The position numbers were made by a program, and so were the translations under genes. Below are positions 44,134-59,082 of a DNA stretch of 64,000 bases, piece by piece. The notes below the pieces were generated by a model. That model made no database searches. It was not told where the DNA came from and saw nothing but the letters and a program-made list of their open reading frames with translations. Numbering within the stretch: position 1 is the first letter of the stretch; the number at the start of each line of letters is the position of its first letter. The DNA is from Escherichia phage cardinal. The stretch lies in sequence record PQ567651.1; one strand, written 5' to 3'.

Positions 44134-44343
44134 CTAATTATAATTCACATAGCGCCCACAATCCTGTTCAAGAAATTTTTCAGCATCCCTTTGGTGCTTT
44201 AACACGATGCACTGTTCTTTTTTAGCTTCACTTTCACGAGCTTCTCTTGCCATATACTCACCTAAACGAATGATACTAGAGAATAACACGTATGCAAGAA
44301 TAAGACAAACAGTGATTGCACAGAAAGTTTTAAACTTAACCAT
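44134..44343 (-). CDS. small membrane-anchored protein (paralog of 39124..39348)
   Basis: ATG after GGAGG; TM helix; EQCIVLKHQRDAEKFLEQDCGRYVNY. Confidence 0.5.
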   Translation of the reverse strand: MVKFKTFCAITVCLILAYVLFSSIIRLGEYMAREARESEAKKEQCIVLKHQRDAEKFLEQDCGRYVNYN

Positions 44344-44686
44344 TGTATTCCTCCATATCACGAATACGATCAATCACCCATTGTACACGTTCTTTATTAA
44401 GGTGTGCAATGCCTAGTTCTGTTTCCGTAAAGTAGTGCGAGAAATCCGTATTAAACGGATGTAAATGGTTCAAACCCGCTTTCTTAAATTGTTCCTTCAT
44501 TTCCTCTCGTACAGAGGATTGGAGCTTTGATACATTCTCAACATCTTTTATCCAAGCAATATTGTACAAGAAGTCTACAAGACACGTGCAAAGACCATAA
44601 TGCTTTTTGCTAAAGTTTGTATCTTCTTGTTCTAACCACCACTCATAAAATTGTAGCAAATAGGAGCTGCTTTTCATGTTACACAC
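44336..44686 (-). CDS. hypothetical protein
   Basis: track ORF. Confidence 0.5.
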   Translation of the reverse strand: MCNMKSSSYLLQFYEWWLEQEDTNFSKKHYGLCTCLVDFLYNIAWIKDVENVSKLQSSVREEMKEQFKKAGLNHLHPFNTDFSHYFTETELGIAHLNKERVQWVIDRIRDMEEYNG

Positions 44687-45211: not shown

Positions 45212-45664
45212 TTATACGATGTTCACACTAATATCTGCAACACCAACAAGAGAATAGACTTCAACTACACTTTGTGTACGATCCAGCTTGTAACGTTTCG
45301 CCTCTTTTTCAACTTCCTCACGGGAGATGGTTTCCATGATCGGAACTCCATCCACTACAAGCAGGTATTTCTCTTCGTGTTTACTTTTTGGTGCTTCCTC
45401 TAAGACTTCTACAAAATACTCAAACTCACTTTTTGCAAGCAACGTGTAACACTGAAGAAAGTCTCCTTCATTTTGAGCGATAATTTCTTGTTCTCCTGCT
45501 AAGGATTGCAAAGCAGTGACACCATACCAATCATCCACATCTAATACACGAAAATAAGAATCACCTAAAAAAGAAGCAATCCTGCTATTGCACTCAGACA
45601 CGTTAGCAAACTTACGGATATAAGATGGGTTTTTAAAACGATACACTTTACCAATTTCAAACAT
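45212..45664 (-). CDS. hypothetical protein
   Basis: track ORF. Confidence 0.5.
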   Translation of the reverse strand: MFEIGKVYRFKNPSYIRKFANVSECNSRIASFLGDSYFRVLDVDDWYGVTALQSLAGEQEIIAQNEGDFLQCYTLLAKSEFEYFVEVLEEAPKSKHEEKYLLVVDGVPIMETISREEVEKEAKRYKLDRTQSVVEVYSLVGVADISVNIV

Positions 45665-45674
45665 TACACAAATC

Positions 45675-45852
45675 CTTATTGTTCAAGAGTAAAAGGAATG
45701 ATTTCACCATAGCTGTATTGCATGGCATTCACTTCTGCTTCTGCACGTTGTGCTAGTTCTAATGTTGCACAGATTTTGTAAGGTACAGTGCTGCATTGGC
45801 TCCAGCCTGGGGTATTCTTTGTTACTAAGTACACAGTAGTCTCTTTATCCAT
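45675..45852 (-). CDS. small hypothetical protein
   Basis: 59 aa ORF with GAGGAAAAG RBS. Confidence 0.35.
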
Positions 45853-45866
45853 CTTCTTTTCCTCTT

Positions 45867-46082
45867 TTAAACAGTATATTCGTGTGGAAGGAAAACATAG
45901 TCTTCTCCTTCAACAACATCAACTACTTCCCACTTCCAGCCAGGTACTTGGCTCATTGTCTTGAATGACACATAAGCAACTCCGCTGTAAGCGATATCGG
46001 CATCTAACATAAGAGGGAAAGCAACGTGTGTCAATCCCAGATAACCACAATTATTTTCAATACACACCTGAATGCTTTTCAT
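45867..46082 (-). CDS. hypothetical protein
   Basis: internal ATG of track ORF 45867..46127 just after upstream stop. Confidence 0.45.
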   Translation of the reverse strand: MKSIQVCIENNCGYLGLTHVAFPLMLDADIAYSGVAYVSFKTMSQVPGWKWEVVDVVEGEDYVFLPHEYTV

Positions 46083-46083
46083 G

Positions 46084-46542
46084 TTATGCTCCATTAAAGA
46101 CGGGGCGTGTAGCATTACGTTCATCATTCACTGTAATAAGGTTTTTCATAACCATAACACCCTGAATATAGCCTAACCAACGATGGCGTTTGGTTTCAGA
46201 CATACCATTACACCCATCCTGAATTTCATTCAACATCCACAGTAAGTGGGAAGCACCTGTTTCACTGGTATCTGGATCTTCTACAGAACTAAGAATCGTT
46301 TCATAGCGTTCACAAATTTCTGGGTAGAATTCATAATCCTGTTGTACATCTCGCATTTCTCGAATGAAGTGACGAGCAATAGGCTTCCCACGAAAATATT
46401 CATTGATGAAATCAATAACACACATCTCACTGCCTGTCACCACGGAAGGCGTTCCTATGTTAAATTGAACACTCACACCGCATTCTTTTACAAGATTATG
46501 TACACGCTCAGTGTTAGCAAGATACAAAGATACAGTTTTCAT
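46084..46542 (-). CDS. hypothetical protein
   Basis: track ORF, first gene of minus block. Confidence 0.5.
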   Translation of the reverse strand: MKTVSLYLANTERVHNLVKECGVSVQFNIGTPSVVTGSEMCVIDFINEYFRGKPIARHFIREMRDVQQDYEFYPEICERYETILSSVEDPDTSETGASHLLWMLNEIQDGCNGMSETKRHRWLGYIQGVMVMKNLITVNDERNATRPVFNGA

Positions 46543-47000
46543 TTACACCTCTCATTAGTAGTTTGTTATGCGCGATATTGCATATTTTATGGAACACAGT
46601 GTACAGACATTTCTATTCAATGCAAGCATTATTTGCATCTTATAAATTTACGTCTCATGCCACACATCATACAGCGTCTTTTCATCTATTACAAGAACAG
46701 CAACCTAGGAACATCATTAATGGAGGGATTAGTATAGGGATTAGTATAGGATTTCCCTATCAATTATTCTATATATACCTAATATTTTTAACACACCCCT
46801 TTGTACATAATATAGACAAATAAATATCTATGCCACAAAAATTTTCTGGTATACCCGATTTATTTCGACACACCCCCTTTTCATAAGCGTAAAGTCAATA
46901 ATATCAATAACTTGCCGCAAAATACTGCTCGCTTGCGAGAGGTGCTTAACGCGATTTTCAGCGCCCCCCCGATTTCTGCCGACCGTCCCCCTCAAATATC

Positions 47001-47037
47001 AATGAGAATAATTATCATTTGCATTATCATTCAATGA
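47001..47037. promoter_or_regulatory. Fur-box-like AT palindrome cluster
   Basis: aatgagaataattatcatttgcattatcattcaatga. Confidence 0.35.
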
Positions 47038-47198
47038 CTTATAAGACTTTTGATTATTTTCTGAGCAAGAAAGGTACTACTCACAACAAAACAGATAAAT
47101 TCTAAGTAAATCAATGGCTTGGCAAGTCTAAACATCTATATACACCTTGCCAAATGAAATGATCTGGCGTGAAATAGTGCCACCCGTGGAAGATAGCT

Positions 47199-47219
47199 GA
47201 TAATGATTATCATTTGCAT
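47199..47219. promoter_or_regulatory. Fur-box-like palindrome
   Basis: gataatgattatcatttgcat vs Fur box GATAATGATAATCATTATC. Confidence 0.4.
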
Positions 47220-47451
47220 ACTTTCTGTACTATAAAACCGACTAAAAATCAAGATAATTCTGATTTATTGCGCTTTTAAGAGAGTAGGCTCAACAAATAA
47301 CAACAAATGAGGTATGTTATAGGGGCAATAGTATGAAAAATCATCTATTCAGATGTAAATAATTTTGCGCAATAGTGGTAATATTTTTCTTGACAAGAAA
47401 GATTTCTTTGTGTGCACATAGCGCCCCTGGAGGGTGGCGCATTATGATCAT

Positions 47452-47505
47452 CAGTGTCATTATTCATTTCAGTGTCATTATTCATTTCAGTGTCATTATT
47501 CACCA
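47452..47505. repeat. 3 tandem copies of 18-bp unit cagtgtcattattcattt
   Basis: perfect copies 1-2, third diverges at end. Confidence 0.8.
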
Positions 47506-48120
47506 TGTTTATTATTGCATAGCTTATTATATGGAGCTTATATTATAGCCAATGTTCTAAACATTAGCTAATAATAACGCACCGCAACAATGTAAGGGAT
47601 ACAATATACCATGTATATTGTTGCGCTTGCAATTGTTGCAAGCTACATAAGCACAAATAATAACTATCGGTGATGGTTATTATGTGGGGTGTGTAGTTGC
47701 GTTATTATTAGCCGCCTATGTGTCCGGCATAGGCTGCTAATGATACGCTTGCGAATTATATTTCTTGTTATAGTTATTGTATGGAATGATTACTACATGA
47801 AATGGTTACTGTATGAAATGATTATCTAAGTAATAGATAGGAAGGTAAAGATTAGATCATAAATAGATAGGATGTGAATTATTTAGTAATGTTACTAACA
47901 ATTTAATAGTTACTTTGTGCAACAATTCGATAGATTATAATTGTAGTTTTAAGGGTTAGATAGATTATATTTAGCTTAGTAATGATTTATATTAGTTATT
48001 ATTGTTTAATACAATGTTATCAATGAGATAGTAACAGTAAGTTATAAATAAAGGTGAGATAATTAGTTTTAATTTAGTTAGATAACTTATTATTTTATAG
48101 GTTAGATGGTCTTAAGTTAA

Positions 48121-48196
48121 GAATGATTCTCATTATTGCATTATGCAATTTATTGCATAAATAATCAGCTATAAATAAGAATGATTATCATTTAAG
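48121..48196. promoter_or_regulatory. Fur-box-like palindromes
   Basis: gaatgattctcattattgcattatgcaat...aagaatgattatcatttaag. Confidence 0.35.
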
Positions 48197-48406
48197 AGGA
48201 AAGACAAGAAAAAGGCTGTTTTTGCCAGGTAATTACATGAAGAAATTAAAAATAAGCGGTCTAAAACACGTTGTAAGCGCCTTATGATCTTCATGGTATG
48301 GTTGTTCATCTGCTCCTTGATTAGCTCGATACCGCGATCTATTCACTTTTTTCGGTGAACGTTTTTGATAGGTAAAAGCTATCATCTTTATTTAGGTAAA
48401 AAGAAA

Positions 48407-48423
48407 GGGCGCAATAAGCGCCC
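48407..48423 (-). terminator. terminator hairpin gggcgc-aataa-gcgccc at end of minus block
   Basis: minus strand reads hairpin then TTTCTTTTT; same hairpin (opposite orientation) at 52283. Confidence 0.6.
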
Positions 48424-48439
48424 TTGTTTGAAATGTTAT

Positions 48440-48811
48440 TTACTGATAAGCTGGATCGTTTGTTATATCAATCCAATGAGATAAATTAATTTTATTTTTT
48501 GCTTTCATTTTCTCGATCAAACGTTCGGCTAATGTTTCTGAACGAATATAAACATGCTCGCTAAAATCTTGCCCCGTTTCTTCGTCGATCATTTCTCTAT
48601 ATTCAACCTTGCCGATAAACGCATAAGTTTTACCCGTGTACCAGTTATGTAAATGGATCTCGCATTTATAATCATCGCTATACCCTTCGGTTGTTCTAAC
48701 TTCAACCAAGTCACCTTTAAACACTGATAAGCACCACATAGGATCACGATCTACAGCGCCGTTAAAATCTTTACCGTTTACAGTAGCCGCCAGGTTGATG
48801 ATATTGCTCAT
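48440..48811 (-). CDS. hypothetical protein
   Basis: track ORF. Confidence 0.5.
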   Translation of the reverse strand: MSNIINLAATVNGKDFNGAVDRDPMWCLSVFKGDLVEVRTTEGYSDDYKCEIHLHNWYTGKTYAFIGKVEYREMIDEETGQDFSEHVYIRSETLAERLIEKMKAKNKINLSHWIDITNDPAYQ

Positions 48812-48886
48812 GGTGATTCCTCGTTTACCGTTTAAAATGATTTGCCCTACACGATAACTATAAGTTAACAGAGGCTATAAAGCAAG

Positions 48887-49117
48887 TTATTTTTCAAAAA
48901 ATTTTTCTACTGTGATATTCTTCCCAGTGGGATTAGCTACTTTCAAAATTTTATCATGTACTGGACGCCCAAAAGAATAAGATCCGTATACAGTAAACCA
49001 ATAATCACCGTCAGGCTGTACTATCACCGCTGCATAGGGTACGCCTTTTTCGTTATTGCTGACAGAATAGATCACATTGCCGTTAATAGCTTCAGCGCGT
49101 TTAATTTGTTCGATCAT
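48887..49117 (-). CDS. hypothetical protein
   Basis: track ORF. Confidence 0.5.
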   Translation of the reverse strand: MIEQIKRAEAINGNVIYSVSNNEKGVPYAAVIVQPDGDYWFTVYGSYSFGRPVHDKILKVANPTGKNITVEKFFEK

Positions 49118-49136
49118 GATATGATTCCTATATTGA

Positions 49137-49196
49137 GCGGGAAACCACTTCCCGCCTTACGTGATACATCTTAGTATAAGGGCGATCCGGTGTCAA
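49137..49196 (-). promoter_or_regulatory. promoter + stem-loop cassette (PeSL-like)
   Basis: minus: TTGACA-17-TAAGAT-GTATCAC..GGCGGGAAGTGGTTTCCCGC. Confidence 0.55.
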
Positions 49197-49324
49197 TAGG
49201 TAGAATTGTAAAGATTTGATAGTTTATTTCTTTGATGTTTTGTTATTTGATAGGTGGAAGCTATCAATATATAATAAGATCGTCCGGTGATTATCTTCCC
49301 CTGCTCCCAGGTGCCGCCCGTTCA

Positions 49325-49365
49325 ATAAGCATAACAAAAAACAGGACAAAAACAAGCCCTGTTTT
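49325..49365 (-). terminator. rho-independent terminator after 49373..49576
   Basis: minus: ACAGG-loop-CCTGT followed by TTTTTTGTT. Confidence 0.5.
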
Positions 49366-49372
49366 GTAAAGA

Positions 49373-49576
49373 TTAGATGATCTGCATATCCTCCACGATA
49401 ATTTCTAATTTCCAAACAAGATGATCTAAGCTCCCTGATAAAAATGATTCCGATACATAACCGCCATCTGACACCGTAGCAAGGATCTCGCCATTTGCTT
49501 GCTCTTTGATTTGAACATCCAGGCGGTTAGCCTTTGCTTTATTCAGGACGGCGATCAGGCGGTTAGCTGTAGTCAT
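49373..49576 (-). CDS. hypothetical protein
   Basis: track ORF. Confidence 0.5.
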   Translation of the reverse strand: MTTANRLIAVLNKAKANRLDVQIKEQANGEILATVSDGGYVSESFLSGSLDHLVWKLEIIVEDMQII

Positions 49577-52282: not shown

Positions 52283-52310
52283 AAAGGGCGCTTATTGCGC
52301 CCTTTTTTGT
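52283..52310. terminator. bidirectional terminator hairpin gggcgc-ttatt-gcgccc
   Basis: aaaagggcgcttattgcgcccttttttg. Confidence 0.55.
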
Positions 52311-52447
52311 TATTCGTTCCAGTATCTTTTTGTGCTGCGATCTCTTTTTGTTTTGTTCCGCTTGTCGCCTTTTTTGGTGATCTCTTCGTTCCAATTTTTA
52401 CGCGCCTTGCTGCGGTTGAATTTTTCGATCTGCTGTGATGCGTTCAT
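52310..52447 (-). CDS. small basic protein
   Basis: 45 aa ORF with AAGAGGAAG RBS. Confidence 0.3.
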   Translation of the reverse strand: MNASQQIEKFNRSKARKNWNEEITKKGDKRNKTKRDRSTKRYWNE

Positions 52448-58180: not shown

Positions 58181-58183
58181 CGC

Positions 58184-58212
58184 TTGACAAGCGCCCGACA
58201 AGGGCGCATAAT
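58184..58212 (+). promoter_or_regulatory. TTGACA + palindrome + CATAAT element at start of non-coding region
   Basis: cTTGACAagcgcccgacaagggcgCATAATc. Confidence 0.4.
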
Positions 58213-58436
58213 CTCTTACATAGACAGGAACGCCTACCAATGGCGCTAAACTTGGTGATGATAGCCGCAGGGCATCGACAGCTATAATCGCCGGTAGCTC
58301 GTCTAAAATAAATTTGTAAAGAAATGTAAAGATAAAAATAATCGCTTGCTTTTGTTGTTGGTTATGCTATTCTTATTGTATGGCGAGGGGACACGGGAGC
58401 GCGAGACAAACACCGCCCCTGCGCGTTATTTTCTAA

Positions 58437-58546
58437 ATGAGAAAATTCTCATTTGCTAATGATTCTCATTCTCTTACTGAGAATGATTATCACTTACATA
58501 ATTAAATGATAATGATTCTCATTTACAAATGAGAATGATTATCATA
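58437..58546. promoter_or_regulatory. cluster of Fur-box-like palindromes
   Basis: repeated aatgattctcatt / gagaatgattatcat units. Confidence 0.4.
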
Positions 58547-58569
58547 CGCATACCTATAAAAACACGAAA

Positions 58570-58766
58570 TTGAACTTTTCATTTTTGATTTTTCTACGGA
58601 AAAAGGCAAAAAAACTTTAAATAAACTGGGGAATTTTTAAAAAATTGAAGTTTTCATTTTCAAAATCTGGATAGAAATACGTACAAAAACTTTAAATAAT
58701 TTTGACCAAACTTGAACTTTTCATTTTCAAAATTTGTACCCAAAAATCTGTAAAAACTTTAAATAA
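58570..58766. repeat. 3 direct repeats of ~55-bp unit TTGAACttttcattttcaaaat...aaaaactttaaataa
   Basis: three similar units at about 70-bp period. Confidence 0.7.
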
Positions 58767-59082
58767 TTTTGTACTTTTTATAAAAATGATTTTACTGTTC
58801 TGTTATAAGTAGTAGTTAAGAGATAGTATGCCTTTTAAAGATCAGATACCATAGTCAAACAAACAAATTAAATACTTTATTAACAGAGTACAGAATAATA
58901 TTTACTCTGGATATATTATTCAGAGGGTGGATTTCCGTACATGAAACCCACACCCCTTTTTATAAAAATAAAAATTTTCAAAATATCAGTAAATATCAGA
59001 TTGTGCTTTTAGATAAACAGCAAGGTCTGTATGCCATTTTCCTAAAAGATTTTGTCCTTTCCAACAGTCCTTATTTTCCACA

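What the first reader, a model, noticed from the sequence alone, without database searches (positions are those of the whole stretch)
46543..48439. 1.9-kb AT-rich non-coding region between two minus-strand gene blocks
No plausible ORF lies on the local coding strand. Instead it holds tandem gggattagtata units near 46728, two cacaccccc boxes, a TTGACA promoter-like site followed by hairpin gcgcc..ggcgc near 47385..47440, three tandem 18-bp repeats at 47452..47505, many short AT repeats and several Fur-box-like palindromes. This looks like a regulatory or replication hub such as an origin, packaging site or non-coding RNA locus.
Basis: seen in the sequence. Interest (0 to 1): 0.6.

Follow-up and report, generated by a model that had tools for sequence, protein, structure and literature searches.

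The report
Genome-end repeat region of phi92-like phage
This 1.9-kb gene-free stretch is where the linear DNA of a phi92-like E. coli phage begins and ends (a 343-bp terminal repeat already annotated in phage phi92), and next to that repeat lie near-perfect host iron-regulator (Fur) binding sites and a strongly conserved folded element that I found described nowhere.

Summary

The main answer is ordinary. Window 46947/8-47290 is about 98% identical to the 343-bp direct terminal repeat (DTR) annotated at both ends of phi92. Records of BME3 (DTR found with PhageTerm), Mt1B1_P17, Schickermooser and phi1_175008 start or end at exactly these two positions. Both boundaries lie in one direct-repeat motif, GAGAG-N2-3-GCT-Y-AAC, which occurs twice in 64 kb against 0.02 expected.

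So the region is the junction between genome copies, where packaging cuts are made. A terminator lies on one side and the early-gene leader on the other.

Two sub-features appear in no paper I could search:
- Near-consensus Fur boxes, one inside each DTR boundary and two more near 48.1 kb. A second cluster lies at 58.4 kb.
- A 165-185-nt multi-helix element at 47562-47744, with 51 pairs, 14 of them compensatory, 99.9% pairing in 21 sequences, a bias to the + strand and no Rfam match.

An origin of replication is neither shown nor excluded. Overall this is a known kind of feature, with moderately interesting unexplained parts.

The parts
48405..48425 (-). Intrinsic terminator (8-bp stem, 6 G-C pairs, then a T-run) that ends the minus-strand operon finishing with the gp248-like gene
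   Evidence: It is conserved with loop changes in the other lineages aligned, and annotated as a terminator in PATM and Schickermooser.
48118..48190 (.). Two Fur-like boxes (48118-48132 and 48176-48190) flanking the palindrome TTATGCAATttATTGCATAA
   Evidence: One box (AATGATAAyCATT) is kept in the Phapecoctavirus and Klebsiella-phage lineages aligned.
47745..48117 (.). AT-rich spacer with short repeat arrays (16-nt unit x2.8 at 47781-47824; TAGATAG-type units about 30 nt apart at 47817-47972). It cannot be aligned between genera.
47562..47744 (+). Conserved structured element: a 14-bp closing helix around two arms, followed by a 3' hairpin. It is flanked by, and partly built from, GCTAATRATA boxes.
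   Evidence: 51 pairs, 14 with compensatory changes, 99.9% of 1063 cells paired. The + strand folds 12-23 kcal/mol better than the minus strand in all 13 sequences. No Rfam match.
47451..47502 (.). 18-nt tandem repeat with 2.9 copies here and a single copy in phi92
47385..47440 (.). Short palindromes (TTCTTGACAAGAA, AGAAAGATTTCTTT) and the hairpin GCGCC-N10-GGCGC. Function unknown; it is not a terminator.
   Evidence: The stretch is conserved in phi92.
46947..47290 (-). Direct terminal repeat homolog (343-344 bp), taken to be the two physical ends of virion DNA. The 46947 end is uncertain by 1 nt: phi92's annotation includes T46947, while the BME3, P17 and phi1_175008 records start at A46948.
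47280..47294 (+). Boundary motif copy 2, GAGAGTAGGCT|CAAC, a candidate terminase cut site
46937..46950 (+). Boundary motif copy 1, GAGAGGTGCT(T)|AAC, a candidate terminase cut site
47198..47212 (.). Fur box B, TGATAATGATTATCA: a perfect 7-1-7 match and 17 of 19 to the classical consensus. It ends 78 nt inside the 47290 boundary.
47003..47017 (.). Fur box A, TGAGAATAATTATCA. It starts 55 nt inside the 46948 boundary and its 15-mer is identical in both genera.
47125..47153 (-). Best candidate early promoter inside the DTR, reading toward gp001: TTGGCA-17-TAGACT here, TTGACA in phi92
   Evidence: This is a consensus match only.
46543..46946 (-). Leader between the DTR and the first early gene. 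It holds two GGGGTGTG boxes (46792-46799, 46869-46876), the 12-nt tandem repeat (46724-46750), and the site at 46640 where relatives carry a 2-gene insertion.

Best explanation
The gap is the genome-terminus (concatemer-junction) region of a phi92-like myovirus.

Window 46947/8-47290 is the short direct terminal repeat. It occurs once in this assembly, and in replicating concatemers, but at both ends of the packaged linear DNA. During packaging the terminase is inferred to cut at the two copies of GAGAG-N2-3-GCT|YAAC that bracket the repeat. The repeat is then duplicated so that each packaged genome carries it at both ends, as in other short-DTR phages such as T7; that step is inferred.

Reading on the minus strand, which is the gene direction, the order is:
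- the gp248 operon stops at the terminator at 48405-48425;
- about 1.1 kb of right-end non-coding DNA follows, holding the structured element, the repeat arrays and two Fur boxes;
- then the DTR, with one Fur box inside each boundary and a candidate early promoter;
- then a 400-nt leader into the block of small early genes that starts with gp001.

Shown here: homology to the DTR, boundary positions and boundary motifs across lineages, absence of genes, the terminator, the Fur-box matches, and the conserved structure. Inferred: the cutting chemistry, which protein binds the boxes, and the role of the structured element.
For: Identity of the phage and the gap:
- The window is 94-96% identical to Justusliebigvirus genomes. 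The flanking genes are the phi92 gp001 and gp248 homologs.

Homology to a defined DTR:
- phi92 RefSeq annotates identical 343-bp DTR-L and DTR-R. These align to window 47290->46947 with 5 mismatches and 1 indel.

Independent evidence for the same boundaries:
- The BME3 record starts at window 46948 and ends at 47290. Its DTR of 342 bp came from PhageTerm (PMC12210895).
- In Mt1B1_P17 the first 328 nt equal the last 328 nt. In Schickermooser this is 329 nt, and its paper reports 328 bp (PMC6563267).
- The phi1_175008 record ends exactly at AACGCG.
- A 2025 paper states that members of this subfamily terminate with DTRs (PMC12695924).

Boundary motif:
- The motif and a DTR length of 320-344 bp are kept in the 13 loci and junctions examined, although the DTR interior has diverged.
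- The motif occurs exactly twice in 64 kb, against 0.02 expected.

Gap size:
- A non-coding gap of about 1.5-1.9 kb is kept across genera.
Against: - No reads or virion-end data exist for this particular phage, so its ends are placed by homology only.
- The window holds one copy of the repeat, so terminal duplication itself is not seen.
- Some records that start at 47290 (W22, PHB05) may simply have been re-opened to match phi92 and are not independent evidence.
- The BME3 record has an offset DTR annotation, N's and an odd arrangement at its end.
- The DTR accounts for only 344 of the 1897 nt. The remaining roughly 1.5 kb is described but not functionally explained.
Confidence: 0.9

Rival explanations
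1. Host Fur protein binds the near-consensus boxes in and beside the DTR, and at the second cluster near 58.4 kb. It would either make early transcription from the DTR respond to iron, or serve as an architectural host factor for terminus recognition, as IHF does at lambda cos. This would complement the DTR explanation rather than replace it.
For: - Box B is a perfect 7-1-7 Fur motif and matches 17 of 19 positions of the classical consensus.
- With at most 1 mismatch there are 5 hits in the window against 0.03 expected, all in two non-coding regions.
- Box A's 15-mer is identical in both genera and sits 55-58 nt from the boundary, although the surrounding DTR has diverged.
- The best matches to the box-B 30-mer among 28 Gb of E. 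coli genomes (two hits inspected) lie about 70-90 nt upstream of an FTR1-family iron permease gene. That site shares TGAnAATAATTATCATTTGCAT with box A.
Against: - No box overlaps a convincing promoter, and the distance to the nearest TATAAA-like hexamer varies from 10 to 22 nt.
- Most copies read TGAGAAT rather than TGATAAT. Vequintavirus LL12 has related TGAGAA..TATCATT boxes in its DTR that fit Fur poorly, with 3 mismatches. A phage-encoded protein is therefore equally possible.
- The second cluster lies between convergent gene ends, which is not a typical operator position.
- The searches I ran found no paper reporting Fur involvement.
Confidence: 0.4
2. The conserved element at 47562-47744 is a + strand non-coding RNA, antisense to the direction of the flanking genes. 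On this view the region is partly an RNA locus.
For: - The + strand MFE is -82.2 kcal/mol with z = -7.2.
- There are 51 pairs, 13-14 of them with compensatory changes, and 99.9-100% of cells are paired. No shuffle of 500 reached the observed values, and slid controls gave 23-55% pairing.
- One-sided changes are almost all to G.U on the + strand: 31 of 32 cells.
- The + strand folds 12-23 kcal/mol better than the minus strand in all 13 sequences, and the consensus has 51 pairs against 46.
- It occurs once in every relative locus searched that holds this region, always on the same strand.
Against: - No conserved promoter lies upstream and no terminator lies downstream.
- The only -10-like hexamers would place the transcription start inside or beyond the 5' arm of the closing helix.
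- There is no Rfam family and no expression data.
- The closing helix is made of inverted GCTAATAATA boxes, and further copies of that box flank the element. This suggests protein-binding sites in DNA.
- G.T wobble also stabilises single-stranded DNA hairpins, so the strand bias does not prove RNA.
Confidence: 0.3
3. The 1.1 kb between the DTR and gp248 is, or contains, the replication origin or a single-strand initiation / packaging-recognition signal. The structured element would act as a strand-specific DNA hairpin, and the GCTAAT, AATGAT and TAGATAG repeats as protein-binding iterons.
For: - It is the most AT-rich stretch of the window (47001-48000, GC 0.315) and holds several short repeat arrays.
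- The GCTAATRATA box occurs three times in the window, all of them here.
- The strand-specific fold is compatible with single-stranded DNA.
- The position beside the DTR is kept across genera, at 197-277 nt from the boundary.
- From my own memory, not tested here: in T7 an inverted repeat beside the concatemer junction has been proposed to form a hairpin intermediate in end processing.
Against: - There are no DnaA boxes in the gap.
- Repeat copy numbers vary between close relatives, and the AT-rich spacer cannot be aligned between genera.
- GC skew in this genome follows transcription direction, so it gives no origin signal (PMC3606486 reports the same for rV5).
- No initiator gene is evident next to the region.
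Confidence: 0.25
4. The gap is decayed coding sequence, that is, pseudogenes or missed small genes.
For: - Several GenBank records annotate up to 10-13 tiny hypothetical proteins under the matched stretch.
- Relatives PATM and inny carry two real small genes inserted at window 46640.
Against: - The tiny ORF calls disagree between records in position and strand.
- The small ORFs in the gap have no PHROG or Pfam hit.
- The best candidate ORF loses its Shine-Dalgarno sequence and ATG in Phapecoctavirus.
- The two-gene difference is a clean 718-nt indel that leaves only a 9-codon remnant.
- Conservation follows base-pairing and palindromes, not codons.
Confidence: 0.03

Closest known systems
Direct terminal repeats of Escherichia phage phi92 (NC_023693, PHI92_DTR-L and DTR-R, 343 bp) and relatives (BME3 342 bp, Schickermooser 328 bp, Mt1B1_P17 328 bp)
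   Same: The sequence is homologous (about 98% to phi92). The position between gp248 and gp001 is the same, the boundaries are the same, and so is the boundary motif.
   Different: Nothing substantive differs. This genome is assembled with one collapsed copy, has 2.9 copies of the 18-nt unit instead of 1, and lacks the two-gene insertion that some relatives carry at 46640.
Short-DTR packaging of T7-like phages (concatemer junction with one repeat copy, sequence-specific cuts, repeat duplication)
   Same: It has a short, non-permuted terminal repeat of a few hundred bp in a non-coding junction, with early genes next to one end. This comparison rests on textbook knowledge plus the anatomy found here.
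   Different: The phage is an unrelated myovirus with a 146-kb genome and no sequence similarity to T7. The cut-site motif is a direct repeat at both boundaries. The mechanism has not been studied in this group.
Vequintavirus LL12 terminal repeat (459 bp, PhageTerm)
   Same: The repeat lies in a large (2.5 kb) non-coding region and contains TGAGAA..TATCATT-type boxes.
   Different: There is no alignable sequence, no AACGCG or GCT|YAAC boundary motif and no copy of the structured element. It lies between convergent transcripts rather than between two co-oriented gene blocks.
E. coli Fur operators (19-bp consensus GATAATGATAATCATTATC, also read as the 7-1-7 motif TGATAATnATTATCA)
   Same: Box B matches 15 of 15 (7-1-7) and 17 of 19 (classical consensus). 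Box A is nearly identical to the box upstream of an E. coli FTR1 iron permease gene.
   Different: The boxes lie in a virulent phage's terminal repeat and non-coding regions, not over an identifiable promoter of an iron gene. Binding has not been tested.
Strand-specific single-strand initiation signals and hairpin promoters (plasmid sso/ssi elements, N4 early promoters), or a structured non-coding RNA
   Same: It is a strand-biased, covariation-supported set of hairpins of about 170 nt in non-coding DNA.
   Different: It has no sequence or covariance-model match to any Rfam family. The resemblance to the DNA elements is recalled from memory, not tested.

Membership tests
Stephanstirmvirinae short direct terminal repeat (phi92 type) | Sequence homologous to a DTR defined in a relative | tested here: met
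   Window 47290->46947 aligns to the phi92 DTR (identical copies at 1-343 and 148270-148612) with 5 mismatches and 1 indel.
Stephanstirmvirinae short direct terminal repeat (phi92 type) | Lies in the large non-coding gap between the gp248-like and gp001-like genes | tested here: met
Stephanstirmvirinae short direct terminal repeat (phi92 type) | Boundaries coincide with record ends or termini found independently in other members, and carry the conserved boundary motif | tested here: met
   BME3, Mt1B1_P17, Schickermooser and phi1_175008 support the same boundaries. The motif is kept in the 13 loci and junctions examined and occurs twice in 64 kb against 0.02 expected.
Stephanstirmvirinae short direct terminal repeat (phi92 type) | Physical ends of this phage's virion DNA at those positions, with twofold read coverage across the repeat | not testable with these tools
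   No reads or virion DNA data are available for this genome.
Stephanstirmvirinae short direct terminal repeat (phi92 type) | The repeat is present at both ends of the linear genome | not testable with these tools
   The window holds a single internal copy, as expected when an assembly collapses the repeat.
Fur operator | Match to the Fur consensus above chance | tested here: met
   There are 5 hits with at most 1 mismatch, against 0.03 expected.
Fur operator | Resembles a Fur-type box in the promoter region of a host iron-uptake gene | tested here: met
   The best E. coli matches (two hits inspected) lie upstream of an FTR1 iron permease gene. That this promoter is Fur-regulated is my inference.
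Fur operator | Overlaps the -35/-10 elements of a regulated promoter | tested here: inconclusive
   No consistent promoter geometry was found.
Fur operator | Fur protein binds the site | not testable with these tools
   This needs EMSA, ChIP or a Fur titration assay.
Replication origin (iterons, AT-rich unwinding region, DnaA boxes) | DnaA boxes | tested here: not met
   TTATCCACA with at most 1 mismatch has no hit between 45540 and 50886.
Replication origin (iterons, AT-rich unwinding region, DnaA boxes) | Conserved iteron array | tested here: inconclusive
   Arrays exist. However, copy number varies within the genus and the spacer cannot be aligned between genera.
Replication origin (iterons, AT-rich unwinding region, DnaA boxes) | Replication initiates here | not testable with these tools
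   GC skew follows transcription direction and gives no origin signal.
Known structured RNA family (Rfam) | Match to a curated covariance model | tested here: not met
   There were no matches at E <= 1 for 45500-49500, and none at gathering score for the whole window.
Structured RNA in general | Structure supported by covariation, with a strand bias | tested here: met
Structured RNA in general | Own promoter and terminator, or evidence of transcription | tested here: inconclusive
   No conserved signals were found. No expression data are available.
Intrinsic terminator | G+C-rich hairpin followed by a T-run, downstream of a gene | tested here: met
   48425-48405 on the minus strand, conserved across lineages.

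The most novel reading that the evidence does not exclude
The 165-185-nt strand-specific structured element next to the terminal repeat is a new functional RNA, or a single-stranded-DNA signal, needed for concatemer processing or end replication in Stephanstirmvirinae. In addition, the near-consensus Fur boxes placed symmetrically inside the repeat recruit host Fur, so that packaging or early transcription of a virulent phage is tied to the iron status of the host.
Probability: 0.2. Interest if true: 0.65.

Novelty: already known. Interest (0 to 1): 0.38.

Why it matters
The main result has practical value only. It fixes where this genome should be opened and shows that a 343-bp repeat is collapsed in the assembly. 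It also warns against the many tiny 'hypothetical proteins' that some depositors annotate in this gap.

The by-products could matter more:
- A 14-15-nt motif at both repeat boundaries gives a testable terminase cut site for a widely isolated group of broad-host-range coliphages, some of which are studied for therapy.
- Genuine-looking Fur boxes inside a virulent phage's terminal repeat would be an unusual link between host iron sensing and phage DNA ends.
- The covariation-rich element is a clean candidate for a new RNA family or DNA hairpin signal, with no model in Rfam.

Tried and rejected
- **Rfam and tRNAs.** Rfam at E <= 1 on the gap and at gathering score on the whole window found nothing. 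ARAGORN found no tRNA or tmRNA in the window.
- **DnaA boxes.** None lie in the gap.
- **Sigma-70 promoters.** The scan showed no enrichment, and I could not define a conserved promoter for either strand around the structured element or at a fixed distance from the Fur boxes.
- **Small ORFs.** They have no family hits, and the only ORF with a Shine-Dalgarno sequence is not conserved. Coding was rejected.
- **Degraded-gene idea.** The two extra genes of relatives are a clean indel.
- **Vequintavirus LL12.** Its terminal region has no nucleotide or flanking-protein similarity to either non-coding region of this window, and no copy of the element.
- **Extra copies of the element.** The covariance-model search found none in the window.
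- **Wider homologs.** Pattern scans of IMG/VR and metagenomes added only close relatives, 3 and 7 loci.
- **Literature.** Searches for Fur boxes, or for transcriptomes of these phages, found nothing relevant. The phi92 genome paper (PMC3457257) is not held.
- **GC skew.** It tracks transcription direction only.
Full report
**What the window is.** The gap and its flanks are 94-96% identical to many Justusliebigvirus (phi92-like, Stephanstirmvirinae) coliphages of about 146-148 kb. The minus-strand gene to the left of the gap (46084..46542) is the phi92 gp001 homolog. The one to the right (48440..48811) is the gp248 homolog, Pfam Phage_30_8. In phi92 numbering, then, the gap lies between the last gene and the first gene.

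**Check of the observation.**
- The 12-nt unit has 2.2 copies at 46724-46750, and the 18-nt unit has 2.9 copies at 47451-47502.
- Two CACACCCC boxes are there. The window has 4 copies of GGGGTGTG against 0.56 expected.
- TTGACA is at 47390-47395 and the GCGCC..GGCGC hairpin at 47421-47440.
- Four Fur-like palindromes are present.
- The gap is non-coding. Its longest stop-free stretch is 92 aa, below the 100-aa minimum of the 1897-nt tiles sampled across the window. Seven small ORFs have no PHROG or Pfam match. The one ORF with a Shine-Dalgarno sequence is lost in the sister genus.
- Some relatives carry two extra small genes, but as a clean 718-nt insertion at window 46640.
- Both tandem arrays are shorter in phi92, and sigma-70-like sites are not enriched.

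**What it is: the genome ends.**
- The phi92 RefSeq record annotates identical 343-bp left and right direct terminal repeats. They lie 355 nt upstream of gp001 and 1110 nt downstream of gp248.
- Aligning the gap with the phi92 end-to-end junction places this repeat at window 47290->46947 on the minus strand, with 5 mismatches and one 1-nt indel.

Several records support the same two boundaries independently.
- The BME3 record begins at window 46948 and ends at 47290. Its authors obtained a 342-bp repeat with PhageTerm (PMC12210895).
- In the sister genus Phapecoctavirus, the Mt1B1_P17 record has identical first and last 328 nt. Schickermooser has 329 nt, and its paper reports a 328-bp terminal repeat (PMC6563267).
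- The record of the unclassified Klebsiella phage phi1_175008 ends exactly at the same AACGCG.
- A 2025 paper states that members of this subfamily terminate with direct terminal repeats (PMC12695924).

**Boundary motif.** In the 13 loci and junctions examined, the repeat runs from ...GTGCTT|AACGCGA... to ...TTTAAGAGAnnnnGCT|CAAC... and is 320-344 nt long. This holds even though its interior can hardly be aligned between genera. The two boundaries are copies of one motif in the same orientation. In this window GAGAG-N2-3-GCT-Y-AAC occurs exactly twice in 64 kb, at 46937-46950 and 47280-47294, against 0.02 expected. I read these as the terminase cut sites. That is an inference from position and conservation, not a tested function.

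**How it most likely works.** Replicating concatemers, like this assembly, carry one copy of the repeat between successive genomes. Packaging cuts at the two motif copies, and the 343 bp between them is duplicated, so that each virion DNA carries the repeat at both ends. This is the general scheme for short-DTR phages such as T7; it is textbook knowledge and was not tested here. On the minus strand the order of features is:
- the gp248 operon, ending at a strong intrinsic terminator at 48405-48425, conserved across lineages;
- about 1.1 kb of right-end non-coding DNA;
- the repeat, containing the best early-promoter candidate (TTGGCA-17-TAGACT here, TTGACA in phi92);
- a 400-nt leader and then the block of small early genes.

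**Unexplained part 1: Fur boxes.**
- Box B (47198-47212, TGATAATGATTATCA) is a perfect 7-1-7 Fur motif and matches 17 of 19 positions of the classical consensus. Box A (47003-47017) has one mismatch.
- With at most 1 mismatch the window has 5 hits against 0.03 expected, all in two non-coding regions. The gap alone has 2 against 0.0 in 300 shuffles.
- Box A's 15-mer is identical in Justusliebigvirus and Phapecoctavirus and starts 55-58 nt inside the AACGCG boundary. A second box lies some 75-120 nt inside the other boundary. One or two more lie about 250 nt from gp248.
- As an outside check, I searched the box-B 30-mer against 28 Gb of E. coli genomes. The two top hits I inspected lie about 70-90 nt upstream of an FTR1-family iron permease gene. 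The sequence there, TGATAATAATTATCATTTGCAT, differs from phage box A plus its 3' flank at one position.
- These are therefore as good as native Fur-type boxes.
- Against a simple operator role, I found no consistent promoter geometry. Most copies read TGAGAAT. The DTR of Vequintavirus LL12 has related boxes that fit Fur poorly. The second cluster (58436-58546) lies between convergent gene ends. A phage-encoded binding protein is thus a live alternative.
- The searches I ran found no paper mentioning Fur boxes in these phages.

**Unexplained part 2: a conserved structured element.**
- Window 47562-47744 folds into a 14-bp closing helix around two arms, followed by a 3' hairpin. The + strand MFE is -82.2 kcal/mol (z = -7.2) and the minus strand -64.4 (z = -6.1).
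- In 13 sequences from five lineages, RNAalifold predicts 51 pairs, 13 with compensatory changes and none broken. All 663 cells are paired, no shuffle of 500 reaches this, and slid controls give 23-54%.
- A covariance model finds exactly one copy in every relative locus searched that holds this region, always on the same strand. It finds no second copy in the window and none in LL12.
- With sequences not used to build the model (21 distinct in all), pairing stays at 99.9%, with 14 compensatory pairs.
- One-sided changes are G.U on the + strand in 31 of 32 cells. Every sequence folds 12-23 kcal/mol better on the + strand. This points to a single-stranded + strand molecule, either RNA or DNA.
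- Rfam has no match.
- I could not find a conserved promoter or terminator. The closing helix is built from inverted GCTAATAATA boxes, with further copies nearby, which would also suit a protein-bound DNA site.
- I therefore leave its nature open, between a non-coding RNA and a strand-specific DNA signal for replication or packaging next to the repeat.

**Origin of replication.** This is not supported and not excluded. There are no DnaA boxes. Repeat arrays vary within the genus, and the AT-rich spacer cannot be aligned between genera. GC skew follows transcription direction.

**Comparison and novelty.** The core feature is already known. It is the phi92-type terminal repeat, annotated in a genome whose repeat is about 98% identical. 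The boundary motif, the Fur boxes inside the repeat and the structured element appear in none of the papers I could search, but the phi92 genome paper itself was not available. I score the finding as a correct observation with an ordinary main explanation, plus moderately interesting unexplained sub-features.

Noticed in passing
window 58181-59082: This is a second gene-free, AT-rich region, lying between convergent gene ends. It holds a TTGACA-17-TAATCT promoter-like site with an embedded hairpin (58185-58213), five tandem Fur-like boxes 18-29 nt apart (58436-58546), three copies of an approximately 65-75-nt unit (gaacttttcattt...aactttaaataa; 58571-58770) and another GGGGTGTG box (58949-58956, minus strand). 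It is partly conserved in Phapecoctavirus. It could be an origin or a regulatory hub.
   Followed up: partly
window 58287-58332: A 46-nt piece of the second non-coding region is about 89% identical in distant phages such as Cronobacter CR3 and CR8, Pectobacterium phiTE and Klebsiella phages. That is far more conserved than its surroundings, and it has no Rfam match.
   Followed up: no
window 46640 (PATM locus L002 3215-3950; inny L001 3096-3831): Relatives carry a clean 718-nt insertion of two paralogous small genes. They are paralogs of the window gene at 44336..44686. Only a 9-codon remnant is left here.
   Followed up: yes
window 48397-48425 and 52284-52312: The terminator hairpin after gp248 recurs at 93% identity, in inverted orientation, about 3.9 kb away.
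   Followed up: no
GenBank MG065639, MG065645, MG065656, MG065689 ('Campylobacter phage' A150, A145, C3, A110a): These records are labelled as Campylobacter jejuni phages but are about 93% identical to this phi92-like coliphage region across the whole query. They are probably mislabelled or contaminant genomes.
   Followed up: no
BME3 record PP239276, locus L011: The record ends coincide with the DTR boundaries. However, the annotated 'DTR-L' feature is offset by 73 nt and contains N's, and the 657 nt before it align to window 47080-47729 rather than to the gp001 leader. This may be an assembly or annotation artefact.
   Followed up: partly
GenBank records VivaForever, Eryne, Nernie, 92CQ, Tr1, FKP3 and phi1_175008 in the region homologous to window 46543-48439: Several depositors annotate many tiny 'hypothetical proteins' here (up to 10-13 under the matched stretch; about 32-80 aa in the three records inspected). 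They fall on both strands and disagree between records. They look like over-calling in non-coding DNA.
   Followed up: partly
window 47547-47745, about 48319-48327, and homologous loci: GC(T/C)AAT(A/G)(A/T)T boxes recur in both orientations around and inside the structured element, and once more in a conserved block after the gp248 terminator. AATGATT half-sites are also frequent nearby. They may be sites for an unidentified DNA-binding protein.
   Followed up: partly
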